Shown here: one piece after another, positions 7,598-39,341 of the stretch | How positions within the stretch are numbered: position 1 is the stretch's first letter | How the letters are laid out: each line of letters begins with the position of its first letter | From: Heptranchias perlo | Taxonomy: Eukaryota | DNA: 64,000 nucleotides | Direction of reading: 5' to 3' | Assembly: GCF_035084215.1 (NCBI RefSeq) | Contig: NW_027139264.1 | Coordinates: forward strand, 372,001-436,000 | Translations under genes and position numbers: made by a program | The notes under the pieces: model-generated | Database searches by the model: none | The model's input: the letters and a program-made list of their open reading frames with translations, nothing else | What the model was told of the DNA's origin: nothing

Positions 7598-8136
7598 TTA
7601 CAGTTTCAAATGACGCCGTTTAAAAGACGTTCCGTGTTTCTCCTACTTTTGTTCAACCAAGGATTAAAGAAAGGGAACAGTTTGTCTTTGAACGTGTGAG
7701 TGAAAAAGTGCAGAGATGGAACATGTCATCAGCATTGTAAAAGGACACCTGTCCTCCCTCATAGACCCTGATCTTCCTGGGCTTGGTTGTTAGTTTGAGG
7801 ACAGTGGAGGGTGAGGTCAGAGCCCCTTAGATGTGCTCGTACCTCTGACAGATGGTCCACTACCCAATCGAGGGTCAGCGTGATCTGCCCCTTCCTGTTG
7901 GCCGTCTCCTGGGCCAGTCCCAAGTCCCAGTCGGTCTTGTTGGCCGCCTCCATCTCCCAGTAGTGATTCCCTGAGGTGAATCCCTGGCTGCTCAGAACGC
8001 AGGTGCACTGCTCATACCCCTGGCAGACGTTGTTTAGGTTATTGGCTCAGATCATTGGCGTCCACCATGGTCAGGTCCTCAGGTACTACAAGCCTGGACT
8101 GCCCGGTTCTGGGATCGAGAGTGATCAGAGCCAGCA
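7598..8136 (-). pseudogene. B30.2 (PRY/SPRY) terminal exon, disrupted
   Basis: AG acceptor at 8138-8137. Reads LITLDPRT..LVVPEDLT / CTCVLSSQGFTSGNHYWEMEAANKTDWDLGLAQETANRKG / [20 protein letters not shown] / [14 protein letters not shown]...RHLKL*. Several frameshifts, two in-frame stops and loss of 'LDY'. Paralogous to 36799-37343. Confidence 0.92.
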
Positions 8137-8930
8137 CTTTTAATAATAGACAGGGAGAACGTTATAAACATTCGACAATTATAACTGGAACATGAAAATA
8201 CTGAAATCCAAGGTGATATATCGAGAAGGTGTTATCGGCTTTGCATACAGTACACAATTCCTTCTGGGGACACGTTCCCCCCTCATATCTTGCCGATAAC
8301 ACCCCTCTTTACGAAACAGTATATCCTCTGACTCGCCCCCTCCACAATCCCGCAGGGGAATCGTTCACCTTTATCAACATTTCCCCTTCTCTCGACACAG
8401 GGGTATTGATACCTTGCTCTGATCTGATTCCAATAGAGCCCGAGTACCTTCAGTATCTTTCCCACACGGCCGACCTTCATATATCAGCCTGCACGGGGAC
8501 TGCTGGCAAGCTATTATTCGACTGTGGAAGGCATCACAGCTCAGCCTGACCCGGGCCCCACCGGATTCCCACACGGGCGAGGGATCAGGACCAGGAACCA
8601 TAGCTCAGAGTCTGACTCACCCCCAGCCCAGGGAGAGCCGAGAATGATTGGTGCTCAGGTCAGCTAACTTGGCCCAGGCGAGAAATGCCACAGGAGATAG
8701 AGGATCCATAAAGAAAATCACATCAATTGGGGAATATTTTCCTCTGTGTGTAAAGTTACAGAAAGATTCTTCTATTACTAAACTGGGGAGGTTTAGAAGA
8801 AAATCTGTCTTTCACCTGAGTTCAAATACAACCCAGATGAAAGGTCGATAAAGGTTTCATGTGAGGAGAGTTTAGGGCCGTCTCAAGCAATTCTTGTTAT
8901 TTGTGGGTCCATAGGGGATAGGAATTAATT

Positions 8931-9495
8931 GGGGAGTGGGCCTCAGTCAGGTCAGAGTGGGGAGTGGGATTCAGTCGGGTCAGAGTGGGGAGTGGGATTC
9001 AGTCGGGTCTGAGTGGGGAGTGGGATTCAGTCGGGTCTGAGTGGGGAGTGGGCCTCAGTCGGGTTAGAGTGGGGAGTGGGCCTCAGTCGGGTTAGAGTGG
9101 GGAGTGGGATTCAGTCGGGTCAGAGTGGGGAGTGGGGCTCAGTCGGGTCAGAGTGGGGAGTGGGGCTCTGTCGGGTCAGAGTGGGGAGTGGGACTCAGTC
9201 GGGTCAGAGTGGGGAGTGGGACTCAGTCGGGTCAGAGTGGGGAGTGGGATTCAGTCGGGTCAGAGTGGGGAGTGGGGCTCTGTCGGGTCAGAGTGGGGAG
9301 TGGGGCTCTGTCGGGTCAGAGTGGGGAGTGGGGCTCTGTCGGGTCAGAGTGGGGAGTGGGGCTCAGTCGGGTCAGAGTGGGGAGTGGGATTCAGTCGGGT
9401 CAGAGTGGGGAGTGGGGCTCAGTCGGGTCAGAGTGGGGAGTGGGGCTCAGTCGGGTCAGAGTGGGGAGTGGGACTCAGTCGGGTCAGAGTGGGAG
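8931..9495. repeat. 28-bp G-rich minisatellite (GGGGAGTGGGRYTCAGTCGGGTCAGAGT)n, ~20 copies
   Basis: Period 28 (8931 vs 8959). Confidence 0.95.
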
Positions 9496-9909
9496 ACTTG
9501 TTTTTATGTTCACTGTAATGACCTCACGTATTAGATACACATTGAATGAATGATTTCACTTCATCCTTAAAGGAGATCATGTCCGGCTTTATAATAAAAA
9601 TACAAATGAGTCTCCGTGTGCAGAGTTTATCGAAGTTTGATCCTTGTGCATGTCTCTCCAGTTGGTTGCGGCATTGAAGGGGGGTGGGGGCGGTGGTATT
9701 TTCGGAGTCCCTGCTCCAGCGATGGGACCTCACCCCCAGAGGGCAGTTTATCAGTAAATAGTCGGCCCACTGCCCGTGATTTTCCATTCATTAATGGCAA
9801 TGGACCAAGAATTGTGGACACCTCCAATGATCCACACACTGTGTGCAAGGCTCTGCCAGTGGCCCAGGGCCCCGATAATCTCAGCTCAACAGGTCTACGT
9901 TCCTTCAGA

Positions 9910-10040
9910 GCGTTGGGTAGCTCAGCTGGTCGAGAGCTGGACGAAGGGGTTAAGGGTCCCAGGTTTGAATCCCAACAACGTCCACTCAGCCTTTCAACTG
10001 CCTGAGGTTCATGAAGTGAATACCATATTGCAGGGCGTAG
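9910..10040 (+). mobile_element. decayed tRNA-derived SINE
   Basis: TAGCTCAGCTGG A-box and GGTTTGAATCCC B-box, followed by a non-tRNA body (GTCCACTCAGCCTTTCAA...). Confidence 0.55.
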
Positions 10041-10256
10041 GGAGAAATCCAGAGACTGCTCGCAGTCCTTCCCATTGCTAATGGGGCTGCCCCAGACGGC
10101 CCTGACTCCTCAGTAATAGGTATGGGGATGACCAGCTGATTAAAACAGACCAAGGATGGAACCTGCAATCTTCCTCTGGGGCTCAACCACCTATTTCATA
10201 AACTCACTGTGTCATCAGAACAGCTGCAGACAACAGAGATAACATCAAACCTCACA

Positions 10257-13200
10257 TGGTAAATCTATCGGTGTTCACCGAGAGAGGGGATTAGGGTAAA
10301 TCTATCGGTGTTCACCGAGAGAGGGGATCAGGGTAAATCTATCGGTGTTCACCGAGAGAGGGGATTAGGGTAAATCTATCGGTGTTCACCGAGAGAGGGG
10401 ATTAGGGTAAATCTATCAGTGTTTACCGAGAGAGGGGATTAGGGTAAATCTATCGGTGTTTACCGAGAGAGGGGATTAGGGTAAATCTATCGGTGTTCAC
10501 CGAGAGAGGGGATTAGGGTAAATCTATCGGTGTTCACGGAGAGAGGGGATTGGGGTAAATCTATCGGTGTTTACCGAGAGAGGGGATTAGGGTAAATCTT
10601 TCGGTGTTCACCGAGAGAGGGGATTGGGGTAAATCTATCGGTGTTCACCGAGAGAGGGGATCAGGGTAAATCTATCGGTGTTTACTGAGAGAGGGGATTA
10701 GGGTAAATCTATCGGTGTTTACCGAGAGAGGGGATTAGGGTAACTCTATCGGTGTTCACCGAGAGAGGGGATTAGGGTAAATCTATCGGTGTTCACCGAG
10801 AGAGGGGATTAGGGTAAATCTATCGGTGTTCACCGAGAGAGGGGATTAGGGTAAATCTATCGGTGTTCACCGAGAGAGGGGATTAGGGTCAATCTATCGG
10901 TGTTCACCGAGAGAGGGGATTAGGGTAAATCTATTGGTGTTTACCAGGAGAGAGGGGATTAGTGTAAATCTATCGGTGTTCACCGAGAGAGGGGATTAGG
11001 GTAAATCTATCGGTGTTCACCGAGAGAGGGGATTAGGGTAAATCTATCGGTGTTCACCGAGAGAGGGGATTAGGGTAAATCTATCGGTGTTCAGCGAGAG
11101 AGGGGATTAGGGTAAATCTATCGGTGTTTAACAGGAGAGAGGGGATTAGGGTAAATCTATCGGTGTTCAGCGAGAGAGGGGATTAGGGTAAATCTATTGG
11201 TGTTTACCGAGAGAGTGGATTAGGGTAAATCTATCGGTGTTTACCAGGAGAGGGGATTAGGGTAAATCTATCGGTGTTCATCGAGAGAGGGGATTAGGGT
11301 AAATCTATCGGTGTTCAGCGAGAGAGGGGATTAGGGTAAATCTATTGGCGTTTACCGAGAGAGGGGATTAGGGTAAATCTAATGGTGTTCACCGAGAGAG
11401 TGGATTAGGGTAAATCTATCGGTGTTTACCAGGAGAGGGGATTAGGGTAAATCTATCGGTGTTCACCAGGAGAGAGGGGATTGGGGTAAATCTATCGGTG
11501 TTCACCAGGAGAGAGGGTATTAGGGTAAATCAATCGGTGTTTACTGAGAGAGGGGATTAGGGTAAATCTATCGGTGTTCACCGAGAGAGGGGATTAGGGT
11601 AAATCTATCGGTGTTCACCGAGAGAGGGGATTAGGGTAAATCTATCGGTGTTTACCGAGAGAGGGGATTAGGGTAAATCTATCGGTGTTCACCAGGAGAG
11701 AGGGGATTAGGGTAAATCTATCGGTATTTACCGAGAGAGGGGATTAGTGTAAATCTATCGGTGTTTACCGAGAGAGGGGATTAGAATCTATCGGTGTTTA
11801 CCGAGAGAGGGGATTAGGGTAAATCTATCGGTGTTTACCGAGAGAGGGGATTAGGGTAAATCTATCGGTGTTTACCAGGAGAGAGGGGATTAGGGTAAAT
11901 CTATCGGTGTTTACCGAGAGAGGGGATTGGGGTAAATCTATCGGTGTTTACCGAGAGAGGGGATTAGAATCTATCGGTGTTTACCGAGAGAGGGGATTAG
12001 GGTAAATCTATCGGTGTTTACCGAGCGAGGGGATTAGAATCTATCGGTGTTTACCGAGAGAGGGGATTAGGGTAAATCTATCGGTGTTTACCGAGAGAGG
12101 GGATTAGGGTAAATTATCGGTGTTTACCAGGAGAGAGGGGATTAGGGTAAATCTATTGGTGTTTACCGAGAGAGGGGATTGGGGTTAATCTATCGGTGTT
12201 TACCAGGAGAGAGGGGATGAGGGTAAATCTATCGGTGTTTACCGAGAGAGGGGATTAGGGTAAATCTATCGGTGTTTACCGAGAGAGGGGATTAGGGTAA
12301 ATCTATCAGTGTTCACCGAGAGAGGGGGTTAGGGTAAATCTATCGGTGTTTACCGAGAGAGAGGATTAGGGTAAATCTATCGGTGTTTACTGAGAGAGGG
12401 GATGAGGGTAAATCTATCGGTGTTCACCGAGAGAGGGGATTAGGGTAAATCTATCGGTGTTTACCGAGAGAGGGGATTGGGGTAAATCTATCGGTGTTCA
12501 CCGAGAGAGGGGATTGGGGTAAATCTATCGGTGTTTACCGAGAGAGGGGATTAGGGTAAATCTATCGGTGTTTACCGAGAGAGGGGATTGGGGTAAATCT
12601 ATCGGTGTTTACCGAGAGAGGGGATTAGGGTAAATCTATCGGTGTTTACCGAGAGAGGGGATTAGGGTAAATCTATCGGTGTTTACCAGGAGAGGGGATT
12701 AGGGTAAATCTATCGGTGTTTACCGAGAGAGGGGATTAGGGTAAATCTATCGGTGTTTACCAGGAGAGGGGATTAGGGTAAATCTATCGGTGTTTACCGA
12801 GAGAGGGGATTAGGATAAATCTATCGGTGTTTACCAGGAGAGAGGGGATTAGGGTAAATCTATCGGTGTTCACCGAGAGAGGGGATTCGGGTAAATCTGT
12901 CGGTGTTTACCGAGAGAGGGGATTACGGTAAATCTATCGGTGTTCACCGAGAGAGGGGATTAGGGTAAATCTATCGGTGTTCACCAGGAGAGAGGGGATT
13001 AGGGTAAATCTATCGGTGTTTACCGAGAGAGGGGATTGGGGTAAATCTATCGGTGTTTACCGAGAGAGGGGATTGGGGTAAATCTATCGGTGTTTACCAG
13101 GAGAGAGGGGATTAGGGTAAATCTATCGGTGTTTACCGAGAGAGGGGATTCGGTTAAATCTATCGGTGTTTACCGAGAGAGGGGATTAGGGTAAATCTAT

Positions 13201-16200
13201 CGGTGTTTACCAGGAGAGAGGGGATTGGGGTAAATCTATCGGTGTTTACCAGGAGAGAGGGGATTTGGGTCAATCTATCGGTGTTTACCGAGAGAGGGGA
13301 TTAGGGTAAATCTATCAATGTTTACCGAGAGAGGGGAATGGGGTAAATCTATCAGTGTTTAACGAGAGAGGGGATTGGGGTAAATCTACCGGTGTTCACC
13401 GAGAGAGGGGATTAGGGTAAATCTATCAGTGTTTACCAAGAGAGGGGATTAGGGTAAAACTATCAGTGTTTACCGAGAGAGGGGATTAGGGTAAATCTAT
13501 CGGTGTTCACCGAGAGAGGGGATTGGGGTAAATCTATCGGTGTTCACTGAGAGAGGGGATTAGGGTAAATCTATCGGTGTTCACTGAGAGAGGGGATTAG
13601 GTTAAATCTATCGGTGTTTACCGAGAGAGGGGATTAGGGTAAATCTATCGGTGTTCACCGAGAGAGGGGATTAGGGTAACTCTATCGGTGTTCACCGAGA
13701 GAGGGGATTAGGGTAAATCTATCGGTGTTCACCGAGAGAGGGGATTAGGGTAAATCTATCAGTGTTCACCGAGAGAGGGGATTAGGGTAAATCTATCGGT
13801 GTTCACCGAGAGAGGGGATTAGGGTCAATCTATCGGTGTTCACCGAGAGAGGGGATTAGGGTCAATCTATCGGTGTTCACCGAGAGAGGGGATTAGGGTA
13901 AATCTATCGGTGTTTACTGAGAGAGGGGATTAGGGTAAATCTATCGGTGTTCAGCGAGAGAGGGGATTAGGGTAAATCCTTTGGTGTTTACCGAGAGAGG
14001 GGATTAGGGTAAATCTAATGGTGTTCACCGAGAGAGTGGATTAGGGTAAATCTATCGGTGTTTACCAGGAAAGGGGATTAGGGTAAATCTATCGGTGTTC
14101 ACCAGGAGAGAGGGGATTGGGGTAAATCTATCGGTGTTCACCAGGAGAGAGGGGATTAGGGTAAATCAATCGGTGTTTACTGAGAGAGGGGATTAGGGTA
14201 AATCTATCGGTGTTCACCGAGAGAGGGGATTAGGGTAAATCTATCGGTGTTCACCGAGAGAGGGGATTAGGGTAAATCTATCGGTGTTCACCAGGAGAGA
14301 GGGGATTAGTGTAAATCTATCGGTGTTTACCGAGAGAGGGGATTAGGGTAAATCTATCGGTGTTTACCGAGAGAGGGGATTAGGGTAAATCTATCGGTGT
14401 TTACCAGGAGAGAGGGGATTAGGGTAAATCTATCGGTGTTTACCGAGAGAGGGGATTGGGGTAAATCTATCGGTGTTTACCGAGAGAGGGGATTAGAATC
14501 TATCGGTGTTTACCGAGAGAGGGGATTAGGGTAAATCTATTGGTGTTTACCGAGAGAGGGGATTAGGGTAAATCTATCGGTGTTTACCAGGAGAGAGGGG
14601 ATTAGGGTAAATCTATCGGTGTTTACCGAGAGAGGGGATTGGGGTAAATCTATCGGTGTTTACCAGGAGAGAGGGGATTAGCGTAAATCTATCGGTGTTT
14701 ACCGAGAGAGGGGATTAGGGTAAATCTATCGGTGTTTACCGAGAGAGGGGATTAGGGTAAATCTATCAGTGTTCACCGAGAGAGGGGATTAGGGTAAATC
14801 TATCGGTGTTTACCGAGAGAGGGGATTAGGGTAAATCTATCGGTATTTACTGAGAGAGGGGATTAGGGTAAATCTATCGGTGTTCACCGAGAGAGGGGAT
14901 TAGGGTCAATCTATCGGTGTTTACCGAGAGAGGGGATTGGGGTAAATCTATCGGTGTTCACCGAGAGAGGAGATTAGGGTAAATCTATCGGTGTTTACCG
15001 AGAGAGGGGATTAGGGTAAATCTATCGGTGTTTACCAGGAGAGGGGATTAGGGTAAATCTATCGATGTTTACCGAGAGAGGGGATTAGGGTAAATCTATC
15101 GGTGTTTACCCGGAGAGGGGATTAGGGTAAATCTATCGATCTTTACCGAGAGAGGGGATTAGGGTCAATCTATCGGTGTTTACCGAGAGAGGGGATTGGG
15201 GTAAATCTATCGGTGTTCACCGAGAGAGGAGATTAGGGTAAATCTATCGGTGTTTACCGAGAGAGGGGATTAGGGTAAATCTATCGGTGTTTACCAGGAG
15301 AGGGGATTAGGGTAAATCTATCGATGTTTACTGAGAGAGGGGATTAGGGTAAATCTATCAGTGTTTACCGAGAGAGGGGATTAGGGTAAATCTATCGGTG
15401 TTTACCGAGAGAGGGGATTAGGGTAAATCTATCGGTGTTTACCCGGAGAGGGGATTAGGGTAAATCTATCGATCTTTACCGAGAGAGGGGATTAGGGTAA
15501 ATCTATCGGTGTTTACCAGGAGAGGGGATTAGGGTAAATCTATCGGTGTTTACCGAGAGAGGGGATTAGGGTAAATCTATCGGTGTTCACCGAGAGAGGG
15601 GATTAGGGTAAATCTGTCGGTGTTTACCGAGAGAGGGGATTACGGTAAATCTATCGGTGTTTACCGAGAGAGGGGATTAGGGTAAATCTATCGGTGTTCA
15701 CCGAGAGAGGGGATTAGGGTAAATCTATCGGTGTTCACCAGGAGAGAGGGGATTAGGGTAAATCTATCGGTGTTTACCAGGAGAGAGGGGATTAGGGTAA
15801 ATCTATCAGTGTTTACCGAGAGAGGGGATTGGGGTAAATCTATCGGTGTTTACCGATAGAGGGGATTAGGGTCAATCTATCGGTGTTTAACAGGAGAGAG
15901 GGGATTAGGGTAAATCTATCGGTGTTTACCGAGAGAGGGGATTAGGGTCAATCTATCGGTGTTTACCGAGAGAGGGGATTAGGGTAAATCTATCAATGTT
16001 TACCGAGAGAGGGGATTGGGGTAAATCTATCGGTGTTTAACAGGAGAGAGGGGATTAGGGTAAATCTATCGGTGTTTACCGAGAGAGGGGATTAGGGTCA
16101 ATCTATCGGTGTTTACCGAGCGAGGGGATTAGGGTAAATCTATCAATGTTTACCGAGAGACGGGATTGGGGTAAATCTATCGGTGTTTACCGAGGGAGGG

Positions 16201-19200
16201 GATTGGGGTAAATCTACCGGTGCTTACCGAGAGAGGGGATTGGGGTAAATCTATCGGTGTTTACCGAGAGAGGGGATTCGGGTAAATCTATCGGTGTTTA
16301 CCGAGAGAGGGGATTCGGGTAAATCTATCGGTGTTTACCAGGAGATAGGGGATTGGGGTAAATCTATCGGTGTTTACCAGGAGAGAGGGGATTTTGGTCA
16401 ATCTATCGGTGTTTACCGAGAGAGGGGATTAGGGTAAATCTATCAATGTTTACCGAGAGAGGGGAATGGGGTAAATCTATCAGTGTTTACCAAGAGAGGG
16501 GATTGGGGTAAATCTACCGGTGTTCACCGAGAGAGGAGATTAGGGTAAATCTATCAGTGTTTACCGAGAGAGGGGATTAGGGTAAAACTATCAGTGTTTA
16601 CCGAGAGAGGGGATTAGGGTAAATCTATCAGTGTTTACCGAGAGAGGGGATTAGGGTAAAACTATCAGTGTTTACCGAGAGAGGGGATTAGGGTAAATCT
16701 ATCAGTGTTTACCGAGAGAGGGGATTGGGGTAAATCTATCGGTGTTTACCGAGAGAGGGGATTCTGGTAAATCTATCGGTGTTTACCGAGAGAGGGGATT
16801 AGGGTAAATCTATCGGTGTTTACCAGGAGAGAAGGGATTAGGGTAAATCTATCGGTGTTTACCGAGAGAGGGGATTAGGGTAAATCTATCAGTGTTCACC
16901 GAGAGAGGGGATTAGGGTAAATCTATCGGTGTTTACCGAGAGAGGGGATTAGGGTAAATCTATCGGTGTTTACTGAGAGAGGGGATTAGGGTAAATCTAT
17001 CGGTGTTCACCGAGAGAGGGGATTAGGGTAAATCTATCGGTGTTTACCGAGAGAGGGGATTGGGGTAAATCTATCGGTGTTCACCGAGAGAGGGGATTGG
17101 GGTAAATCTATCGGTGTTTACCGAGAGAGGGGATCAGGGTAAATCTATCGGTGTTTACCGAGAGAGGGGATTAGGGTAAATCTATCGGTGTTTACCGAGA
17201 GAGGGGATTAGGGTAAATCTATCGGTGTTTACCGAGAGAGGGGATTAGGGTAAATCTATCGGTGTTTACCTGGAGAGGGGATTAGGGTAAATCTATCGAT
17301 GTTTACCGAGAGAGGGGATTAGGGTAAATCTATCGGTGTTCACCGAGAGAGGGGATTAGGGTAAATCTATCGGAGTTCACCAGGAGAGAGGGGATTAGGG
17401 TAAATCTATCGGTGTTTACCGAGAGAGGGGATTGGGGTAAATCTATCGGTGTTTACCGAGAGAGGGGATTGGGGTAAATCTATCGTTGTTTACCAGGAGA
17501 GAGGGGATTAGGGTAAATCTATCGGTGTTTACCGAGAGAGGGGATTCGGTTAAATCTATCGGTGTTCACCGAGAGAGGGGATTAGGGTAAATCTATCAGT
17601 GTTCACCAGGAGAGAGGGGATTAGGGTAAATCTATCGGTGTTTACCGAGAGAGGGGATTAGGGTAAATCTATTGGTGTTCACCGAGAGAGGGGATGAAGG
17701 TAAATCTATCGGTGTTCACCAGGAGAGAGGGGATTAGGGTAAATCTATCGGTGTTTACCGAGAGAGGGGTTTGGGGTAAATCTATCGGTGTTTACCGAGA
17801 GAGGGGATTGGGGTAAATCTATCGGTGTTTACCAGGAGAGAGGGGATTTGGGTCAATCTATCGGTGTTTACCGAGAGAGGGGATTAGGGTAAATCTATCA
17901 ATGTTTACCGAGAGAGGGGAATGGGGTAAATCTATCAGTGTTTACCGAGAGAGGGGATTGGGGTAAATCTACCGGTGTTCACCGAGAGAGGGGATTAGGG
18001 TAAATCTATCAGTGTTTACCGAGAGAGGGGATTAGGGTAAAACTATCAGTGTTTACCGAGAGAGGGGATTAGGGTAAATCTATCGCTGTTCACCGAGAGA
18101 GGGGATTAGGGTAACTCTATCGGTGTTCACCGAGAGAGGGGATTAGGGTAAATCTATCGGTGTTCACCGAGAGAGGGGATTAGGGTCAATCTATCGGTGT
18201 TCACCGAGAGAGGGGATTAGGGTAAATCTATCGGTGTTCACCGAGAGAGGGGATTAGGGTCAATCTATCGGTGTTCACCGAGAGAGGGGATTAGGGTAAA
18301 TCTATCGGTGTTCACCGAGAGAGGGGATTAGGGTAAATCTATTGGTGTTCACCGAGAGAGGGGATTGGGGTAAATCTATCGGTGTTCAGCGAGAGAGGGG
18401 ATTAGGGTAAATCTATTGGTGTTTACCGAGAGAGGGGATTAGGGTAAATCTAATGGTGTTCACCGAGAGAGTGGATTAGGGTAAATCTATCGGTGTTTAC
18501 CAGGAGAGGGGATTAGGGTAAATCTATCGGTGTTCACCAGGAGAGAGGGGATTGGGGTAAATCTATCGGTGTTCACCAGGAGAGAGGGGATTAGGGTAAA
18601 TCAATCGGTGTTTACTGAGAGAGGTGATTAGGGTAAATCTATCGGTGTTCACCGAGAGAGGGGATTAGGGTAAATCTATCGGTGTTCACCGAGAGAGGGG
18701 ATTAGGGTAAATCTATCGGTGTTCACCAGGAGAGAGGGGATTAGTGTAAATCTATCGGTGTTTACCGAGAGAGGGGATTAGAATCTATCGGTGTTTACCG
18801 AGAGAGGGGATTAGGGTAAATCTATCGGTGTTCACCGAGAGAGGGGATTCGGGTAAATCTGTCGGTGTTTACCGAGAGAGGGGATTACGGTAAATCTATC
18901 GGTGTTTACCGAGAGAGGGGATTAGGGTAAATCTATCGGTGTTCACCGAGAGAGGGGATTAGGGTAAATCTATCGGTGTTCACCAGGAGAGAGGGGATTA
19001 GGGTAAATCTATCGGTGTTTACCAGGAGAGAGGGGATTAGGGTAAATCTATCAGTGTTTACCGAGAGAGGGGATTGGGGTAAATCTATCGGTGTTTACCG
19101 ATAGAGGGGATTAGGGTCAATCTATCGGTGTTTAACAGGAGAGAGGGGATTAGGGTAAATCTATCGGTGTTTACCGAGAGAGGGGATTAGGGTCAATCTA

Positions 19201-22200
19201 TCGGTGTTTACCGAGAGAGGGGATTGGGGTAAATCTATCAATGTTTACCGAGAGAGGGGATTGGGGTAAATCTATCGGTGTTTAACAGGAGAGAGGGGAT
19301 TAGGGTAAATCTATCGGTGTTTACCGAGAGAGGGGATTAGGGTAAATCTAACGGTGTTCTCCGAGAGAGGGGATTAGGGTAACTCTATCGGTGTTCACCG
19401 AGAGAGGGGATTAGGGTAAATCTATCGGTGTTCACCGAGAGAGGGGATTAGGGTAAATCTATCGGTGTTCACCGAGAGAGGGGATTAGGGTAAATCTATC
19501 GGTGTTCACCGAGAGAGGGGATTAGGGTAAATCTATCGCTGTTCACCGAGAGAGGGGATTAGGGTAAATCTATCGGTGTTCACCGAGAGAGGGGATTAGG
19601 TTCAATCTATCGGTGTTCACCGAGAGAGGGGATTAGGGTAAATCTATCGGTGTTTACTGAGAGAGGGGATTAGGGTAAATCTATCGGTGTTCAGCGAGAG
19701 AGGGGATTAGGGTAAATCTATTGGTGTTTACCGAGAGAGGGGATTAGGGTAAATCTAATGGTGTTCACCGAGAGAGTGGATTAGGGTAAATCTATCGGTG
19801 TTTACCAGGAGAGGGGATTAGGGTAAATCTATCGGTGTTCACCAGGAGAGAGGGGATTGGGGTAAATCTATCGGTGTTCACCAGGAGAGAGGGGATTAGG
19901 GTAAATCAATCGGTGTTTACTGAGAGAGGGGATTAGGGTAAATCTATCGGTGTTCACCGAGAGAGGGGATTAGGGTAAATCTATCGGTGTTCACCGAGAG
20001 AGGGGATTAGGGTAAAACTATCGGTGTTCACCAGGAGAGAGGGGATTAGGGTAAATCTATCGGTGTTTACCGAGAGAGGGGATTAGGGTAAATCTATCGG
20101 TGTTTACCGAGAGAGGGGATCAGTGTAAATCTATCGGTGTTTACCGAGAGAGGGGATTAGAATCTATCGGTGTTTACCGAGAGAGGGGATTAGGGTAAAT
20201 CTATCGGTGTTCACCGAGAGAGGGGATTAGGGTAAAACTATCGGTGTTCACCGAGAGAGGGGATTAGGGTAAAACTATCGGTGTTCACCAGGAGAGAGGG
20301 GATTAGGGTAAATCTATCGGTGTTTACCGAGAGAGGGGATTAGGGTAAATCTATCGGTGTTTACCGAGAGAGGGGATCAGTGTAAATCTATCGGTGTTTA
20401 CCGAGAGAGGGGATTAGAATCTATCGGTGTTTACCGAGAGAGGGGATTAGTGTAAATCTATCGGTGTTTACCGAGAGAGGGGATTAGAATCTATCGGTGT
20501 TTACCGAGAGAGGGGATTAGGGTAAATCTATCGGTGTTTACCAGGAGAGAGGGGATTAGGGTAAATCTATCGGTGTTTACCGAGAGAGGGGATTGGGGTA
20601 AATCTATCGCTGTTTACCGAGAGAGGGGATTGGGGTAAATCTATCGGTGTTTACCGAGAGAGGGGATTAGGGTAAATCTATCGGTGTTTACCGAGAGAGG
20701 GGATTAGGGTAAATCTATCGGTGTTTACCGAGAGAGGGGATTAGAATCTATCGGTGTTTACCGAGAGAGGGGATTAGGGTAAATCTATTGGTGTTTACCG
20801 AGAGAGGGGATTAGGGTAAATCTATCGGTGTTTACCAGGAGAGAGGGGATTAGGGTAAATCTATCGGTGTTTACCGAGAGAGAGGATTGGGGTAAATCTA
20901 TCGGTGTTTACCAGGAGAGAGGGGATTAGGGTAAATCTATCGGTGTTTACCGAGAGAGGGGATTAGGGTAAATCTATCGGTGTTTACCGAGAGAGGGGAT
21001 TAGGGTAAATCTATCAGTGTTCACCGAGAGAGGGGATTAGGGTAAATCTATCGGTGTTTACCGAGAGAGGGGATTAGGGTAAATCTATCGGTGTTTACTG
21101 AGAGAGGGGATTAGGGTAAATCTATCGGTGTTCACCGAGAGAGGGGATTAGGGTAAATCTATCGGTGTTTACCGAGAGAGGGGATTGGGGTAAATCTATC
21201 GGTGTTCACCGAGAGAGGGGATTAGGGTAAATCTATCGGTGTTTACCGAGAGAGGGGATTAGGGTCAATCTATCGGTGTTTACCAGGAGAGGGGATTAGG
21301 GTAAATCTATCGATGTTTACCGAGAGAGGGGATTAGGGTAAATCTATCAGTGTTTACCGAGAGAGGGGATTAGGGTAAATCTATCGGTGTTTACCGAGAG
21401 AGGGGATTAGGGTAAATCTATCGGTGTTTACCAGGAGAGGGGATTAGGGTAAATCTATCGATGTTTACCGAGAGAGGGGATTAGGGTAAATCTATCGGTG
21501 TTTACCAGGAGAGGGGATTAGGGTAAATCTATCGGTGTTTAACGAGAGAGGGGATTAGGGTAAATCTATCGGTGTTCACCGAGAGAGGGGATTAGGGTAA
21601 ATCTGTCGGTGTTTACCGAGAGAGGGGATTACGGTAAATCTATCGGTGTTTACCGAGAGAGGGGATTAGGGTAAATCTATCGGTGTTCACCGAGAGAGGG
21701 GATTAGGGTAAATCTATCGGTGTTCACCAGGAGAGAGGGGATTAGGGTAAATCTATCGGTGTTTACCGATAGAGGGGATTAGGGTCAATCTATCGGTGTT
21801 TAACAGGAGAGAGGGGATTAGGGTAAATCTATCGGTGTTTACCGAGAGAGGGGATTAGGGTCAATCTATCGGTGTTTACCGAGAGAGGGGATTAGGGTAA
21901 ATCCATCAATGTTTACCGAGAGAGGGGATTGGGGTAAATCTATCGGTGTTTAACAGGAGAGAGGGGATTAGGGTAAATCTATCGGTGTTTACCGAGAGAG
22001 GGGATTAGGGTCAATCTATCGGTGTTTACCGAGAGAGGGGATTAGGGTAAATCTATCAATGTTTACCGAGAGAGGGGATTGGGGTAAATCTACCGGTGCT
22101 TACCGAGAGAGGGGATTAGGGTAAATCTATCGGTGTTTACCGAGAGAGGCGAATCGGGTAAATCTATCGGTGTTTACCGAGAGAGGGGATTAGGGTAAAT

Positions 22201-22760
22201 CTATCGGTGTTTACCAGGAGAGAGGGGATTGGGGTAAATCTATCGGTGTTTACCAGGAGAGAGGGGATTTTGGTCAATCTATCGGTGTTTACCGAGAGAG
22301 GGGATTAGGGTAAATCTATCAATGTTTACTGAGAGAGGGGAATGGGGTAAATCTATCAGTGTTTACCGAGAGAGGGGATTGGGGTAAATCTACCGGTGTT
22401 CACCGAGAGAGGGGATTAGGGTAAATCTATCAGTGTTTACCGAGAGAGGGGATTAGGGTAAAACTATCAGAGTTTACCGAGAGAGGGGATTAGGGTAAAT
22501 CTATCAGTGTTTACCGAGAGAGGGGATTAGGGTAAAACTATCAGTGTTTACCGAGAGAGGGGATTAGGGTAAATCTATCAGTGTTTACCGAGAGAGGGGA
22601 TTCTGGTAAATCTATCGGTGTTTACCGAGAGAGGGGATTAGGGTAAATCTATCGGTGTTTACCAGGAGAGAAGGGATTAGGGTAAATCTATCGGTGTTTA
22701 CCGAGAGAGGGGATAAGGGCAAATCTATCGGTGTTTACCGAGAGAGGGGATTAGGGCAAA
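10257..22760. repeat. 37-bp satellite A (GTAAATCTATCGGTGTTYACCGAGAGAGGGGATTAGG)n, ~335 copies
   Basis: 12.5-kb continuous array with recurring variant blocks. Confidence 0.98.
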
Positions 22761-22960
22761 TCTATCAGTGTTCACCAGTGGAGAGGTTTATGGTAAATCT
22801 ACCAGTGTTCACCACGGGAGAGGTTTATGGTAAATCTACTGGTGTTTACCAGGGGAGATGTTTTTAGTAAATCTACCAGTGTTTACCAGGGGAGAGGTTT
22901 ATGGTAAATCTACCAGTGTTGACCGGGGGAGAGGTTTATGGTATATCTATAGGTGCTAAC
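22761..22960. repeat. transition zone of divergent 37-bp units between satellites A and B
   Basis: Units such as GTAAATCTACCAGTGTTCACCACGGGAGAGGTTTATG, in register with both arrays. Confidence 0.8.
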
Positions 22961-25900
22961 TAGGAGAGTGTATTGCGGTATATCTATTGGTGTTTACCGG
23001 GAGGGTGTATTGCGGCATATCTCTTGGTGCGTACCAGGAGAGTGTATTGCGGTATGTCTATTGGTGTTTACCGGGAGAGTGTATTGCGGTATATCTATCG
23101 GTGTTTACCGGGAGAGTGCATTGCGGTATATCTGTTGGTGTTTACCGGGAGAGTGTATTGCGGTATATCTATTGGTGTTTCCCGGGAGAGTGCATTGCGG
23201 TATATCTGTTGGTGTTTACCGGGAGAGTGTATTGCGGTATATCTATCGGTGTTTACCGGGAGAGTGTATTGCGGTATATCTATTGGTGTTTACCGGGAGA
23301 GTGTATTGCGGTATATCTATTGGTGTTTACCGGGAGAGCAAATTGCTGTAAATCTATTGGTGTTTACCGGGAGAGTGTATTGCGGTATATCTATCGGTAT
23401 TTACCGGGAGAGTGCATTGCGGTATATCTGTTGGTGTTTACCGGGAGAGTGCATTGCGGTATATCTGTTGGTGTTTACCGGGAGAGTGTATTGCGGTATA
23501 TCTATCGGTGTTTACCGGGAGAGTGTATTGCGGTATATCTGTTGGTGTTTACCGGGAGAGTGTATTGCGGTATATCTATTGGTGTTTACCGGGAGAGTGT
23601 ATTGCGATATATCTGTTGGTGTTTACCGGGAGAGTGTATTGCGACATATCTATCAGTGTTTACCGGGAGAGTGTATTGCGGTTTATCTATCGGTGTTTAC
23701 CGGGAGAGTGTATTGCGGTATATCTATTGGTGTTTACCGGGAGAGTGTATTGCGGTATATCTATTGGTGCTTACCGGGAGAGTGTATTGCGATATATCTA
23801 TCGGTGTTTACCGGGAGAGTGTATTGCGGTATATCTATTGGTGTTTACCGGGAGAGTGTATTGCGGTATATCTATTGGTGTTTACCGGGAGAGTGTATTG
23901 CGATATATCTATCGGTGTTTACCGGGAGAGTGTATTGCGGTATATCTGTTGGTGTTTACCGGGAGAGTGTATTGCGGTATATCTATTGGTGTTTACCGGG
24001 AGAGTGTATTGCGATATATCTATTGGTGTTTACCGGGAGAGTGTATTGCGATATATCTATCGGTGTTTATCGGGAGAGTGTATTGCGGTATATCTATCGG
24101 TGTTTACCGGGAGAGTGTATTGCGGTATATCTATTGGTGTTTACCGGGAGAGTGTATTGCGATATATCTATTGGTGTTTACCGGGAGAGTGTATTGCGAT
24201 ATATCTATCGGTGTTTACCGGGAGAGTGTATTGCGGTATATCTATCGGTGTTTACCGGGAGAGTGTATTGCGGTATATTTATCGGTGTTTACCGGGAGAG
24301 TGTATTGCGGTATATTTATCGGTGTTTACCGGGAGAGTGTATTGCGGTATATCTATTGGTGTTTACCGGGAGAGTGTATTGCGGTATATCTATTGGTGTT
24401 TACCAGGAGGGTGTATTGCGGTATATCTATCGGTGTTTACCGGGAGAGTGTATTGCGGTATATTTATCGGTGTTTACCGGGAGAGTGTATTGCGGTATAT
24501 CTATCGGTGTTTACCGGGAGAGTGTATTGCGGTATATCTATCGGTGTTTACCGGGAGAGTGTATTGCGGTATATCTATCGGTGTTTACCGGGAGAGTGTA
24601 TTGCGGTATATCTATCGGTGTTTACCGGGAGAGTGTATTGCGGTATATTTATCGGTGTTTACCGGGAGAGTGTATTGCGGTATATCTATTGGTGTTTACC
24701 GGGAGAGTGTATTGCGGTATATCTATTGGTGTTTACCAGGAGGGTGTATTGCGGTATATCTATTGGTGTTTACTGGGAGAGTGTATTGCGGTATATCTAT
24801 CGGTGTTTACCGGGAGAGTGTATTGCGGTATATCGACCGGTGTTTACCGGGAGAGTGTATTGCGGTATATCTATCGGTGTTTACCGGGAGAGTGTATTGC
24901 GGTATATCTATCGGTGTTTACCGGGAGAGTGTATTGCGGTATATCTATCTGTGTTTACCGGGAGAGTGTATTGCGGTATATCTATCGGTGTTTACCGGGA
25001 GACTGTATTGCGGTATATCTATCGGTGTTTACCGGGAGAGTGTATTGGGGTATATCTATCTGTGTTTACCGGGAGAGTGTATTGCGGTATATCTATCGGT
25101 GTTTACCGGGAGAGTGTATTGCGGTATATCTATTGGTGCTTACCGGGAGAGTGTATTGCGATATATCTATCGGTGTTTACCGGGAGAGTGTATTGCGGTA
25201 TATCTGTTGGTGTTTACCGGGAGAGTGTATTGCGGTATATCTATTGGTGTTTACCGGGAGAGTGTATTGCGATATATCTATTGGTGTTTACCGGGAGAGT
25301 GTATTGCGATATATCTATCGGTGTTTACCGGGAGAGTGTATTGCGGTATATCTATCGGTGTTTACCGGGAGAGTGCATTGCGGTATATCTGTTGGTGTTT
25401 ACCGGGAGAGTGTATTGCGGTATATCTATTGGTGTTTCCCGGGAGAGTGCATTGCGGTATATCTGTTGGTGTTTACCGGGAGAGTGTATTGCGGTATATC
25501 TATCGGTGTTTACCGGGAGAGTGTATTGCGGTATATCTGTTGGTGTTTACCGGGAGAGTGTATTGCGGTATATCTATTGGTGTTTACCGGGAGAGTGCAT
25601 TGCGGTATATCTGTTGGTGTTTACCGGGAGAGTGTATTGCGGTATATCTATCGGTGTTTACCGGGAGAGTGTATTGCGGTATATCTATCGGTGTTTACCG
25701 GGAGAGTGTATTGCGGTATATCTGTTGGTGTTTACCGGGAGAGTGTATTGCGGTATATCTATCTGTGCTTACCGGGAGAGTGTATTGCGGTATATCTATC
25801 GGTGTTTACCGGGAGAGTGTATTGCGGTATATCCATCTGTGTTTACCGGGAGAGTGTATTGCGATATATCTATTGGTGTTTACCGGGAGAGTGTATTGCG

Positions 25901-27659
25901 GTATATCTATTGGTGCTTACCGGGAGAGTGTATTGCGATATATCTATCGGTGTTTACCGGGAGAGTGTATTGCGGTATATCTGTTGGTGTTTACCGGGAG
26001 AGTGTATTGCGGTATATCTATTGGTGTTTACCGGGAGAGTGTATTGCGATATATCTATTGGTGTTTACCGGGAGAGTGTATTGCGATATATCTATCGGTG
26101 TTTACCGGGAGAGTGTATTGCGGTATATCTATCGGTGTTTACCGGGAGAGTGTATTGCGGTATATCTATTGGTGTTTACCGGGAGAGTGTATTGCGATAT
26201 ATCTATTGGTGTTTACCGGGAGAGTGTATTGCGATATATCTATCGGTGTTTACCGGGAGAGTGTATTGCGGTATATCTATCGGTGTTTACCGGGAGAGTG
26301 TATTGCGGTATATTTATCGGTGTTTACCGGGAGAGTGTATTGCGGTATATTTATCGGTGTTTACCGGGAGAGTGTATTGCGGTATATCTATTGGTGTTTA
26401 CCGGGAGAGTGTATTGCGGTATATCTATTGGTGTTTACCAGGAGGGTGTATTGCGGTATATCTATCGGTGTTTACCGGGAGAGTGTATTGCGGTATATTT
26501 ATCGGTGTTTACCGGGAGAGTGTATTGCGGTATATCTATCGGTGTTTACCGGGAGAGTGTATTGCGGTATATCTATCGGTGTTTACCGGGAGAGTGTATT
26601 GCGGTATATCTATCGGTGTTTACCGGGAGAGTGTATTGCGGTATATCTATCGGTGTTTACCGGGAGAGTGTATTGCGGTATATTTATCGGTGTTTACCGG
26701 GAGAGTGTATTGCGGTATATCTATTGGTGTTTACCGGGAGAGTGTATTGCGGTATATCTATTGGTGTTTACCGGGAGGGTGTATTGCGGTATATCTATCG
26801 GTGTTTACTGGGAGAGTGTATTGCGGTATATCTATCGGTGTTTACCGGGAGAGTGTATTGCGGTATATCGATCGGTGTTTACCGGGAGAGTGTATTGCGG
26901 TATATCTATCGGTGTTTACCGGGAGAGTGTATTGCGGTCTATCTATCGGTGTTTACCGGGAGAATGTATTGCGGTATATCTATCTGTGTTTACCGGGAGA
27001 GTGTATTGCGGTATATCTATCGGTGTTTACCGGGAGAGTGTATTGCGGTATATCTATCTGTGTTTACCGGGAGAGTGTATTGCGGTATATCTATCGGTGT
27101 TTACCGGGAGACTGTATTGCGGTATATCTATCGGTGTTTACCGGGAGAGTGTATTGGGGTATATCTATCTGTGTTTAGCGGGAGAGTGTATTGCGGTATA
27201 TCTATCGGTGTTTACCGGGAGAGTGTATTGCGGTATATCTATTGGTGTTTACCGGGAGAGTGCATTGCGGTATATCTATCGGTGTTTACCGGGAGAGTGC
27301 ATTGCGGTATATCTATCGGTGTTTACCGGGAGAGTGTATTGCGGTATATCTATCGGTGTTTACCGGGAGAGTGTATTGCGGTATATCTATCGGTGTTTAC
27401 CGGGAGAGTGTATTGCGGTATATCTATTGGTGTTTACCGGGAGAGTGTATTGCGGTATATCTATCGGTGTTTACCGGGAGAGTGTATTGCGGTATATCTA
27501 TCGGTGTTTACCGGGAGAGTGTATTGCGGTATATCTATCGGTGTTTACCGGGAGAGTGTATTGCGGTATATCTATCGGTGTTTACCGGGAGAGTGTATTG
27601 CGGTATATCTATTGGTGTTTACCGGGAGAGTGTATTGCGGTATATCTATTGGTGTTTAC
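22961..27659. repeat. 37-bp satellite B (GTATATCTATCGGTGTTTACCGGGAGAGTGTATTGCG)n, ~127 copies
   Basis: 4.7-kb array that differs from the A consensus at 6 of 37 positions and ends at the splice donor at 27659-27658. Confidence 0.98.
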
Positions 27660-27779
27660 CTGGAGAGAGCATTTGTCGCATTTCTTGCCAGACTGTGTAT
27701 TGCAGGGGTTCCCTGAACACTCCCAAGTCCAGATCACTGCTCACCACACAGTCTGTCATTTCCTCTCTTTTCCTGGAAC
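27660..27779 (-). pseudogene. TRIM-type pre-PRY exon of the downstream B30.2 pseudogene
   Basis: TTCCTCAG| acceptor and CCAG|GTAAAC donor. Encodes ..DCVVSSDLDLGVFREPLQYTVWQEMRQMLSP, homologous to FRGPLLYAVWKEMKQIISP at 39205-39341. Confidence 0.88.
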
Positions 27780-27891: not shown

Positions 27892-27913
27892 CTCCGCTTC
27901 AGTCCTTTAACTC
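27892..27913 (-). pseudogene. 22-nt micro-exon (counterpart of the 23-nt TRIM exon, 1 nt short)
   Basis: GCAG|GAGTTAAAGGACTGAAGCGGAG|GTGAGG. Compare GAACTGAAAAGATTGAGAGAAAG at 39434-39456. Confidence 0.75.
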
Positions 27914-28389: not shown

Positions 28390-30070
28390 ATTTAAAAAAA
28401 TTCATTCATGGGATGTGGGCGTCGCTGGCGAGGCCGGCATTTATTGCCCATCCCTAATTGCCCTTGAGAAGGTGGTGGTGAGCCGCCTTCTTGAACCGCT
28501 GCAGTCCGTGTGGTGACGGTTCTCCCACAGTGCTGTTAGGAAGGGAGTTCCAGGATTTTGACCCAGCGACGATGAAGGAACGGCGATATATTTCCAAGTC
28601 GGGATGGTGTGTGACTTGGAGGGGAACATGCAGGTGGTGTTGTTCCCATGCGCCTGCTGCTCTTGTCCTTCGAGGTGGTAGAGGTTGCGGGTTTGGGAGG
28701 TGCTGTCGAAGAAGCCTTGGAGAGTTGCTGCAGTGCATCCTGTGGATGGTACACACTGCAGCCACAGTGCGCTGGTGGTGAAGGGAGTGAATGTTTAGGG
28801 TGGTGGATGGGGTACAAATTAAGCGGGCTGCTTTGTCCTGGATGGTGTTGAGCTTCTTGAGTGTTGTTGGAGCTGCACTCATCCAGGCAAGTGGAGAGTA
28901 TTCCATCACACTCCTGACTTGTGCTTTGTAGATGGTGGAAAGGCTTTGGGGAGTCAGGAGATGAGTCAGTCACCGCAGAATACCCAGCCTCTGACCTGGT
29001 CTTGCAGCCACAGTATTTATATGGCTGATCCAGTTAAGTTTCTGGTCAATGGTGACCCCCAGGATGTTGATGGTGGGGGATTCGGCGATGGTAATGCCGT
29101 TGAATGTCAAGTGGAGGTGGTTAGATTCTCTCTTGTTGGAGATGGTCATTGCCTGGCACTTGTCTGGCACAAATGTTAGTTGCCACTTATGAGCTCAAGG
29201 CTGGATGTTGTCCAGGTCTTGCTGCATGTGGGCTCGGACTGCTTCATTATCTGACGGGTTGCGAATGGAACTGAACACTGTGCAATCATCAGTGAACATC
29301 CCCATTTCTGACCTTATGATGGAGGGAAGGTCATTGATGAAGCAGCTGAAGATGGTTGGGCCGAGGACACTGCCCTGAGGGACTCCTGCAGCAATGTCCT
29401 GGGGCTGAGATGATTGTCCTCCAACAACCACTACCATCTTCCTTTGTGCTAGGTATGATACCAGCCACTGGAGAGTTTTCCCCCTGATTCCCATTGACTT
29501 CAATTTTACTTGGGCTCCTTGGTGCCACACTCGGTCAAATGCTGCCTTGATGTCAAGGTCAGTCACTCTCACCTCACCTCTGGAATTCAGCTCTTTTGTC
29601 CATGTTTGGACGAAGGCTGTAATGAGGTCTGGAGCTGAGTGGTCCTGGCGGAACCCAAACTGATCATCGGTGAGCAGGTTATTGATGAATACGTGCTGCT
29701 TGATAGCACTGTCGATGACACCTTCCATCACTTTGCTGATGATTGAGAGTAGACTGATGGGGCGGTAATTGGCCGGATTGGATTTGTTCTGCTTTTTGTG
29801 GACAGGACATACCTGGGCAATTTTCCACATTGTCGGGTAGATGCCAGTGTTGTAGCTGTACTGGAACAGTTTGGCTCGAGGCACGGCTAGTTCTGGAGCA
29901 CAAGAGTTCAGCACTACAGCTGGGATGTTGTCGGGGCCAATAGCCTTTGCTGTATCCAGTGCACTCAGCCGTTTCTTGATATCACGTGGAGTGAATCGAA
30001 TTGGCTGAAGACTGGCTTCTGTGATGGTGGGGATATCAGGAGGAGGCCGAGATGGATCATCCACTCAGCA
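28390..30070 (-). mobile_element. 5'-truncated CR1/L2-group LINE, RT domain plus 3' end
   Basis: ORF 29195..30064 has NYRPISLLS, DIKAAFDRVWH, GVPQGSVLGP and FTDD. 3' end ...CCCACATCCCATGAATGAATTTT. Confidence 0.92.
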
Positions 30071-30071
30071 C

Positions 30072-36798: not shown

Positions 36799-37343
36799 CT
36801 ACAGTTTGAAATGACGCAGTTTGAGGGGAGCAGTATTTTTACCCTCATCGTGCGATCCAGGATAGAAATAAGGAAAGAGTTTCTCAGTGAATGTGTGAGT
36901 GAAAGTGTAGAGATTGGACATATCATCAGCATTGTAAAATGACACCTGTCCTCCCTCATAGTCCAGGTAAACTCCGATGGTCCTGAGTTTCACACTCAGG
37001 GTCAGTGGGACAAATGGGCTTTCAAGAGCTTCATATTCATTCCCATTACTCAGGAACACGGCCCAGTATCCACGTTTAGGCCCCAGTGATATCGTTCCCC
37101 TCCTGTTAACTGACTCTCTGGCCACACCCACGGCCCACTGAGTCTTGTCCCCGACCTCCACCTCCCAGTAATGTTTCCCTGATGTGAATCCCTGTGATCC
37201 CAGGACACAAGGACCTGAATCGAATCTCTCCGGGTTATCGGGAAGCTGTAATTCTCTGTCACCGAGTCTCACACTGGTCCAGTCCTCAGACAGGATGAGC
37301 GAACGATGAGCTGTGTTTGGGTCCAGGGTCAGTGAGGCTGGGA
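36799..37343 (-). CDS. TRIM exon 6: intact B30.2 (PRY/SPRY) domain
   Basis: TTTCCCCAG| acceptor. Reads (V)[80 protein letters not shown]. Confidence 0.93.
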
Positions 37344-37473
37344 CTGGGGAAATAAAAATGACATCATGTTAAATATTTTAGACAGAGGAAGGTGGACGGA
37401 CACAGGTTAATATCTGATATCTGGAAAACTGGGCTCGGCCCCCAGTCTATAATTTCTGTATCAGTAAATAGTG

Positions 37474-37742
37474 CAGACTGGGTACAGTGTGCAGTTCGAT
37501 ATATTCCTGGACTCCAGTGTGTTCAGTGAACAGATATTACAGACTGGGTACAGTGTACAGTTCGATATATTCCCAGACTCCAGTGTGTTCAGTGAACAGA
37601 TATTACAGACTGGGTACAGTGTACAGTTCGATATATTCCTGGACTCCAGTGTGTTCAGTGAACAGATATTACAGACTGGGTACAGTGTACAGTTCGATAT
37701 ATTCCTGGACTCCAGTGTGTACAGTGAACAGATATTACAGAC
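37474..37742. repeat. 66-bp tandem repeat, ~4 copies (intronic)
   Basis: 22-aa periodicity in ORF 37471..38664. Confidence 0.9.
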
Positions 37743-37765
37743 CAGGCAGAGGAAAACAGTCAGCC

Positions 37766-38977: not shown

Positions 38978-39204
38978 ACTGGAAAGTGCGAGTGTCTGGA
39001 TTCAAATGAGAAAATGTTCTGATTCTGTCTCTACTTGAATCGCTCAATCTGAGGTCACACAAAAAGAACGGCCCCTTGAGTGAGGTACCAGAGACTGCTG
39101 CCCCAGTGATCGGTACACAACAACAGTCAGTACATTCAGGAGAGGGAGAAGAGAGCAGGAAACTCTACAGAAAGTTCACCCAAACCTGTGGAGTCGTTTC
39201 ATAC

Positions 39205-39341
39205 CTGGAGAGATGATCTGTTTCATTTCCTTCCACACTGCGTAGAGTAAAGGGCCTCGAAACACGGCGTATTTCAGACTTGATCTCTCTTTATCTTCCC
39301 CTCTCTCTGCACCTTCTCCTCCCTCCCCTTTGTCCAGGTAC
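39205..39341 (-). CDS. TRIM exon 5 (137 nt, linker/pre-PRY)
   Basis: AACAG|G...CCAG|GTATGA. Encodes YLDKGEGGEGAERGEDKERSSLKYAVFRGPLLYAVWKEMKQIISP; phases fit both neighbours. Confidence 0.88.

What the first reader, a model, noticed from the sequence alone, without database searches (positions are those of the whole stretch)
10257..27670. A 17-kb satellite whose unit is the exon's own splice-donor junction
Seen: on the sense (minus) strand the pre-PRY exon ends ...CTCTCTCCAG|GTAAACACCAATAGATATACC, and the array starts right there. Units read ...CTCTCCCG GTAAACACCGATAGAT... (B) or ...CTCTCTCG GTAAACACC/GTGAACACCGATAGAT... (A), i.e. exon end plus donor. The B unit's GCAATACAC also occurs inside the exon (CTGCAATACACAG, ~27693-27705). 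Inference: the satellite arose in place by tandem amplification of the junction, placing ~460 donor-like motifs in one intron and inflating it to 19.5 kb (1.9 kb in the paralogue). This could have contributed to, or followed, loss of the gene.
Basis: partly seen in the sequence, partly recalled or inferred. Interest (0 to 1): 0.72.

Follow-up and report, generated by a model that had tools for sequence, protein, structure and literature searches.

The report
Splice-donor satellite in dead shark gene
A 37-base piece matching an exon's end plus its splice signal is repeated 469 times inside a broken shark immune-type (TRIM) gene; it likely arose on the spot and kept changing length after the gene died, a very large but ordinary case of a repeat type already known from human genes.

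Summary
Observation confirmed. A 17,402-bp array of 469 units (37 bp; blocks B127, C5, A337) starts at the conserved phase-1 donor of a TRIM pre-PRY exon. Each unit is the first 21 intron bases plus a worn copy of the last 16 exon bases (11/16). It is not dispersed: all 1,881 and 827 exact hits of two unit patterns in the 3.25-Gb genome lie in 12 arrays, each behind a copy of the same exon in a recent segmental duplication. In two copies a unit has slipped into the exon end in register. In-place origin is well supported. A role in killing the gene is not: all 12 copies share the same frameshifts (two upstream of the donor) and lack detectable 5' exons, yet their arrays run from 3.9 to 26 kb, so length change went on after death. 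Whether the seed predates death is open. Only 1 of 467 internal sites equals the real donor, and any use would meet a stop at +12. The same arrangement is published for human F7, CBS, 6-16, LMNB2 and PDGF (PMC1557585), and this scan noted it before on other DNA, including this genome. New member of a known kind; low interest.

The parts
27892..27913 (-). 22-nt remnant of the short TRIM linker exon (23 nt expected from the orthologues' ELKGL.KR); one base short, TGA in frame in this copy
   Evidence: AG/GT flanks and length; orthologue sequence; no indel difference among the 12 copies in this exon
27660..27779 (-). pre-PRY exon, 120 nt (122 expected); begins in the orthologue frame (FQEKRGND), shifts frame, ends ...PLQYTVWQEMRQMLSP with a phase-1 donor
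   Evidence: the donor position is shared by all 38 other pre-PRY junctions examined, 37 of them GT
27695..27703 (-). GCAATACAC, the exon 9-mer also present in the B-unit tail, 28 nt out of register
   Evidence: (5 of 2,000 shuffles)
27639..27675 (-). seed segment: last 16 exon bases plus first 21 intron bases, containing the authentic donor CAG|GTAAAC and an in-frame TAG at intron +12 to +14
22961..27659 (-). B block, 127 units, exon-proximal; shows a 55-unit internal duplication signal
   Evidence: 40% exact unit identity at lag 55
22776..22960 (-). C block, 5 transitional units (up to 112 in other copies, where B-C blocks recur as higher-order repeats)
10258..22775 (-). A block, 337 unit heads including 39- and 33-nt variants; ends exactly at intron phase +21
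8137..10257 (-). rest of the intron, with a separate 28-bp minisatellite (8930-9493) and an AAG acceptor
7603..8136 (-). PRY-SPRY exon remnant: three frame changes (about 8045, 7875, 7700), one stop, a 3-residue deletion
   Evidence: Pfam PRY E 1e-4 and SPRY E 0.01 and 0.12 in three frames, all below the curated cut-offs; 71-77% identity over about 56 residues to shark A33-like proteins
28400..30071 (-). LINE fragment with reverse transcriptase, lying where the missing 5' exons would be expected
   Evidence: Pfam RVT_1 E 6e-31; present upstream of all 9 other copies checked over 10 kb
36802..48488 (-). neighbouring TRIM paralogue (RING, B-box, coiled coil, PRY-SPRY), co-duplicated; no junction-spanning array; TAG in its first exon in this copy

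Best explanation
The array is a locus-specific minisatellite whose unit matches the last 16 exon bases plus the first 21 intron bases, likely born by one local tandem duplication across the donor and then grown by in-register slippage and unequal exchange, with no function. Shown: unit geometry, confinement to 12 copies of one locus, one in-register exchange between a unit and the exon end, shared gene lesions, and array lengths of 3.9-26 kb. Inferred: (1) a 37-bp duplication of positions -16 to +21 was the seed; (2) it diverged into types A, B and C (A and B consensus differ at 6 of 37), B possibly through a second, out-of-register exchange with the exon; (3) if the gene was still alive then, the first-donor rule known from human F7 would have made the copies mostly harmless; (4) the gene died by frameshifts and loss of its 5' exons; (5) the dead locus was then multiplied by segmental duplication, and each array changed length freely.
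For: Start at the donor and end at phase +21 in 12 of 12 copies, as an exact duplication predicts. Tail identity to its own exon end 11/16 for A and B; best of 30 distinct paralogous ends 10/16; 1 (B) and 2 (A) of 3,854 random G|GT sites reach 11, and 8 of 3,854 for the best of three types. Similarity stops at about -14 to -16. Genome-wide exact counts 916+965 and 452+375 are matched exactly by the counts inside the 12 arrays; backwards controls 0. The exon end and donor position are ancestral, shared by 38 other junctions, none with a junction-spanning array. In copies C1097a and C1105a the exon ends in unit-type CCCG|GTAAGC and the original CCAG|GTAAACACCAA sits one unit downstream. Orthologues have Ile where the exon has Met (QILSP in three proteins, KALSP in one), and A and B read ATC and ATA there in register (one base, weak). 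No indel separates the 12 copies at the shared lesions; flanks differ by 0.6-2.6% on average, at most 4.0%. GT positions vary 2.6% and 1.4%, within the range of other conserved head positions.
Against: No array-free orthologous intron was seen, so the 21 intronic bases are not independently shown to be the old intron start. The tail match is only 11/16, type C ties with the best paralogue (10/16), and the neighbouring paralogue's end comes close. The out-of-register 9-mer gives B a 15/16 match under another route. The order of seed versus gene death is untested. Some of the 12 copies may be alleles (pairs at 0.2-0.4%).
Confidence: 0.82

Rival explanations
1. Same in-place origin but by another route: a 65-bp duplication (-44 to +21) with a 28-bp internal loss, or a template switch, made B first; A and C derive from B.
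For: The B tail equals exon -44..-36 joined to -7..-1 at 15 of 16 positions; 5 of 2,000 shuffles reach the 9-mer. B is exon-proximal in 12 of 12 copies.
Against: A matches the exon end in register as well as B does (11/16) and shares no such 9-mer; the 39-nt A variant keeps 9 of the exon's last 10 bases. Three unit types were tested, which weakens the shuffle result about threefold.
Confidence: 0.08
2. The array came first and helped kill the gene: leakage to downstream donors, or retention, gave messages with a stop at +12, lacking PRY-SPRY.
For: Any downstream donor truncates the protein (QMLSP-GKHQ*). B-type CCG|GTAA donors are used by 6 of 38 paralogous junctions. Unit types are more diverged from each other (6 of 37) than the copies' flanks, so the array is older than the duplications. 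Human 6-16 and CBS use two pseudo-sites besides the real one (PMC1557585, Introduction).
Against: The authentic donor is intact in 10 of 12 copies and matches the U1 consensus at 7 of 9 positions, which only 6 of 467 internal sites reach. F7 experiments show that the most upstream site wins (PMC1557585). Two frameshifts lie upstream of the donor and the 5' exons are missing, each enough to kill the gene.
Confidence: 0.06
3. An unrelated dispersed minisatellite landed at the donor through short homology.
For: The region is rich in tandem repeats: 22% of the window outside this array.
Against: Zero exact hits of either pattern outside the 12 arrays in 3.25 Gb; complementary start and end phases; in-register tail match.
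Confidence: 0.03

Closest known systems
Human F7 intron 7 37-bp VNTR (Borensztajn et al. 2006, PMC1557585; abstract, Synopsis, Introduction and Discussion read)
   Same: Minisatellite whose first unit spans an exon/intron boundary and repeats the donor into the intron; 37-bp unit.
   Different: F7: 5-9 units, 4 exon + 33 intron bases, pseudo-sites identical to the donor, live gene, splicing measured. Here: 106-701 units per copy, 16 + 21 bases, three diverged unit types, pseudo-sites weakened at -3/-2, dead gene in 12 assembled copies, splicing not measured.
Human 6-16 (IFI6) intron 2, CBS intron 13, LMNB2 and PDGF intron 4 minisatellites (seen only as passages in the Introduction and reference list of PMC1557585; the originals were not held)
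   Same: Donor reiterated by a junction-spanning minisatellite.
   Different: 10-25 units in working genes; two pseudo-sites are used in 6-16 and CBS, none in LMNB2 and PDGF.
Human ABCA7 intron 18 25-bp VNTR (PMC13747324, passages read; PMC10078293, passages read)
   Same: Large, length-variable array right beside a donor (over 200 copies in some alleles), where intronic donors lead to premature stops.
   Different: Described as adjacent to the donor; affects a live gene and disease risk. No such effect can act on a gene already broken.
Shark 'zinc-binding protein A33-like' TRIM proteins P0003-P0006 (Scyliorhinus, Chiloscyllium, Stegostoma, Hemiscyllium)
   Same: Closest relatives of the host gene: 71-77% identity over about 56 residues for P0003, P0005, P0006, against at most 60% for other genes in this genome.
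   Different: P0003, P0005 and P0006 are full length (476-481 aa); here only three broken 3' exons remain.

Membership tests
Junction-spanning splice-donor minisatellite (F7/CBS/6-16 type) | First unit spans a real exon/intron boundary | tested here: met
   Donor position conserved in 38 paralogous junctions and matches the exon end of the orthologous proteins; tail 11/16 in register
Junction-spanning splice-donor minisatellite (F7/CBS/6-16 type) | Donor motif reiterated in tandem in the intron | tested here: met
   GT kept in 446 of 467 sites in the window and 4,384 of 4,564 units over 12 arrays
Junction-spanning splice-donor minisatellite (F7/CBS/6-16 type) | [quoted passage not shown] | tested here: not met
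   1 of 467 equals the authentic 9-mer; 7 of 4,570 units end in AG
Junction-spanning splice-donor minisatellite (F7/CBS/6-16 type) | Locus-specific and variable in length | tested here: met
   All exact hits inside 12 paralogous arrays; 3,926-26,050 bp. Variation is between copies; between individuals not tested
Junction-spanning splice-donor minisatellite (F7/CBS/6-16 type) | First donor used, downstream ones silent or rarely used | tested here: inconclusive
   No spliced joint in the contigs laid; RNA status of the runs is only a guess
Dispersed satellite family | Arrays at unrelated loci | tested here: not met
   0 of 1,881 and 0 of 827 exact hits outside the 12 arrays; diverged relatives would be missed by exact patterns
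TRIM / B30.2 gene (A33-like) | RING, B-box and coiled-coil exons | tested here: not met
   None for this gene in the window or in 10 kb upstream of 9 copies; best coiled-coil match genome-wide 43%, and hits on these contigs belong to the neighbouring paralogue
TRIM / B30.2 gene (A33-like) | Linker, pre-PRY and PRY-SPRY exons in order and phase | tested here: met
   Present but broken
TRIM / B30.2 gene (A33-like) | Open reading frame | tested here: not met
   Five frame changes and a stop, shared by the 12 copies as far as aligned

The most novel reading that the evidence does not exclude
A splice junction amplified itself into a satellite while the gene was alive, leaked truncated PRY-SPRY-less TRIM messages that sped the gene's loss in this shark lineage, and then matured into a 170-kb multi-locus satellite with higher-order repeats: the full life of a satellite, from splice site to higher-order array, readable in 12 snapshots.
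Probability: 0.06. Interest if true: 0.5.

Novelty: new member of a known kind. Interest (0 to 1): 0.2.

Why it matters
As biology it is ordinary: a known repeat type inside a dead gene. Its modest value is as a natural experiment in satellite evolution. The likely seed (the exon junction) is still attached, and 12 young copies show length change of 6.6-fold, block polarity, birth of higher-order repeats and an in-register exchange with the exon end. It would matter more if a related shark showed a long array in a still-working orthologue.

Tried and rejected
RNA: no RNA holder listed on record. Four runs guessed to be RNA come from one sample; three were laid. No joint across either intron; contigs of X5 (7945-8324) and X6 (7400-8427) read through the PRY-SPRY acceptor unspliced, and the short exons were barely covered. 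These may be DNA, so they count neither way. Origin from an intronic stretch like the neighbouring paralogue's intron start: 76, 359 and 358 of 500 shuffles score as well; rejected. A coiled-coil exon at 28010-28260: no alignment to the orthologues, and 28138-28184 matches many other contigs; rejected. The single outside hit of the upstream flank (C37) falls on that short repeat; its region was fetched and used only as background sequence. The array as duplication breakpoint or exchange hot spot: all 12 copies keep both flanks, and distance correlations across the array (0.02-0.21) are about as low as on one side (0.15-0.39); no signal. Selective loss of GT in the units: not seen. MaxEntScan was not available; matches to a recalled U1 consensus 9-mer were counted instead. 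No relatives' genomes are held for this window. Four look-ups for older papers found nothing held. Searches for shark-specific reports (listings only) showed none on this locus.
Full report
1. Observation. Tandem Repeats Finder gives one array at 10258-27669, period 37, 468.8 copies. On the minus strand the exon ends at 27660 and the first unit starts at 27659 with GT. Splitting gives 469 unit heads: 127 B units next to the exon, 5 C units, then 337 A heads; the array is 17,402 bp. The intron is 19,523 bp; the neighbouring paralogue's is 1,861 bp, most of it two other minisatellites.

2. The junction is real and older than the repeat. The exon translates to ...PLQYTVWQEMRQMLSP. A search with it gave 53 matches: 12 near-identical copies and 41 others. 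I examined 38 of the 41; the 3 left out were the window's own paralogue, one further copy of it, and one weak hit on C544. All 38 end at the same phase-1 position, 37 with GT, and none has an array across the donor. The closest proteins are shark 'zinc-binding protein A33-like' TRIMs, whose sequences run ...QILSP-V or KALSP-V into the PRY domain.

3. The unit is the junction. The unit divides into 21 intron bases and a 16-base tail. The array begins at the donor and ends at phase +21 in 12 of 12 copies, which is the geometry of a duplication of -16 to +21. A and B tails match the exon end at 11 of 16 positions, C at 10. The 30 distinct paralogous ends reach at most 10; 1 (B), 2 (A) and 8 (best of three types) of 3,854 random G|GT sites reach 11. 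Upstream of about -16 the match drops to background. In two copies (C1097a, C1105a) the exon now ends with the unit's CCCG|GTAAGC and the original CCAG|GTAAACACCAA lies one unit further in: the exon end has exchanged in register with the array. The exon 9-mer shared with B is 28 nt out of register; 5 of 2,000 shuffles reach it, so B may come from a second exchange with the exon, or B may be the seed type (rival 1).

4. It is not dispersed. The exon-side flank has 12 matches at 97-100% and the far flank 12 at 98-100%, on 7 small contigs. I fetched the 11 other arrays. An A-type 21-mer occurs 916 + 965 times in the genome and 916 + 965 times inside the 12 arrays. A B-type pattern gives 452 + 375 in both. 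Exact patterns would miss diverged relatives elsewhere. Together the arrays hold 4,582 units in 176,682 bp, insertions included. Four copies carry recurring B-C blocks, two of them many times over, that is higher-order repeats. Some pairs differ by only 0.2-0.4% and may be alleles.

5. The gene is dead in every copy. The linker exon is 22 nt and the pre-PRY exon 120 nt, one and two bases short of what the orthologues imply; the pre-PRY exon starts in the orthologue frame and shifts. The PRY-SPRY exon has three frame changes, a stop and a 3-residue deletion. The alignment shows no copy restoring these indels (C1101 and C1486b align only in part, but over these lesions). No RING, B-box or coiled-coil exon of this gene was found in the window, in 10 kb upstream of 9 copies, or by a genome search with the orthologue's coiled coil; a LINE fragment lies upstream. 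No intact gene in this genome exceeds 60% to the remnant, against 71-77% for other sharks' proteins, so this looks like a lineage-specific loss (inference). Flanks of the copies differ by 0.6-2.6% on average, while arrays run from 3,926 to 26,050 bp. Length change therefore continued after the gene died. The unit types differ more (A and B at 6 of 37), so the array predates the duplications; its order relative to the lesions cannot be read from one genome. A run labelled as another organism (X9) has one 67-nt B-unit contig and one 303-nt contig over 7639-7941 with 3 substitutions and no gaps (depth 3.1), a weak hint that array and lesions are shared with a close relative.

6. The decoys. 446 of 467 internal sites keep GT, but only 1 equals the authentic 9-mer, and 6 reach its 7 of 9 matches to the U1 consensus (recalled motif). 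B-type CCG|GTAA donors serve 6 of 38 paralogues; A-type TCG|GT serves none. GT is neither lost nor kept more than other head positions. Any downstream donor would meet TAG at +12. RNA evidence was not obtained.

7. What is known. PMC1557585 (abstract, Synopsis, Introduction, Discussion read) describes the human F7 37-bp VNTR whose first unit spans the exon 7 boundary, lists 6-16, CBS, LMNB2 and PDGF as further cases, and shows that the most upstream donor is selected. ABCA7 is a large donor-adjacent case with splicing effects (passages of PMC13747324 and PMC10078293). Six literature searches showed no report of this locus. Earlier notes of this scan record the same arrangement in 10 findings by words (8 shown) and three more in this genome, one of about 700 units; they are unchecked and are not evidence here. 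Nothing was on record near this window.

8. Verdict. A real, locus-born splice-donor minisatellite, among the larger ones, in a TRIM pseudogene multiplied by segmental duplication. It shares the defining layout of the F7-type class but not F7's identical pseudo-sites. New member of a known kind; interest 0.2.

Noticed in passing
G000:C1097 (75k, 219k, 400k), C1105 (92k, 247k, 393k), C1486 (80k, 105k), C1406, C1424, C1772, C1101: The locus lies in a recent tandem segmental duplication, spaced about 145-180 kb on two contigs and 25 kb on one, usually with the neighbouring TRIM paralogue; copies are mosaics of each other along their length.
   Followed up: partly
window 48488-47976 (minus): The 'intact' paralogue has an in-frame TAG in its RING exon in this copy (LFV*PV); other copies were not checked.
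   Followed up: no
L080:9725 to L081:5896 (G000:C1101, inside the array): A 6.2-kb element with terminal direct repeats identical over the 300 nt compared and a 4-bp target duplication sits inside this array copy; only one open frame over 120 aa. A young LTR-type insertion, observed only.
   Followed up: partly
L070 and L079 (G000:C1105 about 248k; C1424 about 63k): The same 121-bp foreign insert interrupts the array in two copies, marking them as close relatives; it looks like a LINE 3' end (recalled, untested).
   Followed up: no
window 1406-2915 and 50330-51896: The same 49-bp minisatellite occurs twice in the window, 49 kb apart, unlike the locus-restricted 37-mer.
   Followed up: no
window 27967-28420: Contigs of runs guessed to be RNA cover this stretch just downstream of the LINE end but hardly the short exons; possibly LINE read-through, possibly DNA.
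   Followed up: no
G000:C42, about 1.9-15.9 Mb: A large cluster of PRY-SPRY genes holds most of the 116 matches of the SPRY search; one member (L124) has lost its donor GT and shows stops.
   Followed up: no
L097-L102, L106-L109 (copies of the neighbouring paralogue): Their pre-PRY exon carries a 30-bp two-copy coding repeat, and their last intron a 42-bp array of 8-30 copies starting about 225 nt after the donor.
   Followed up: no
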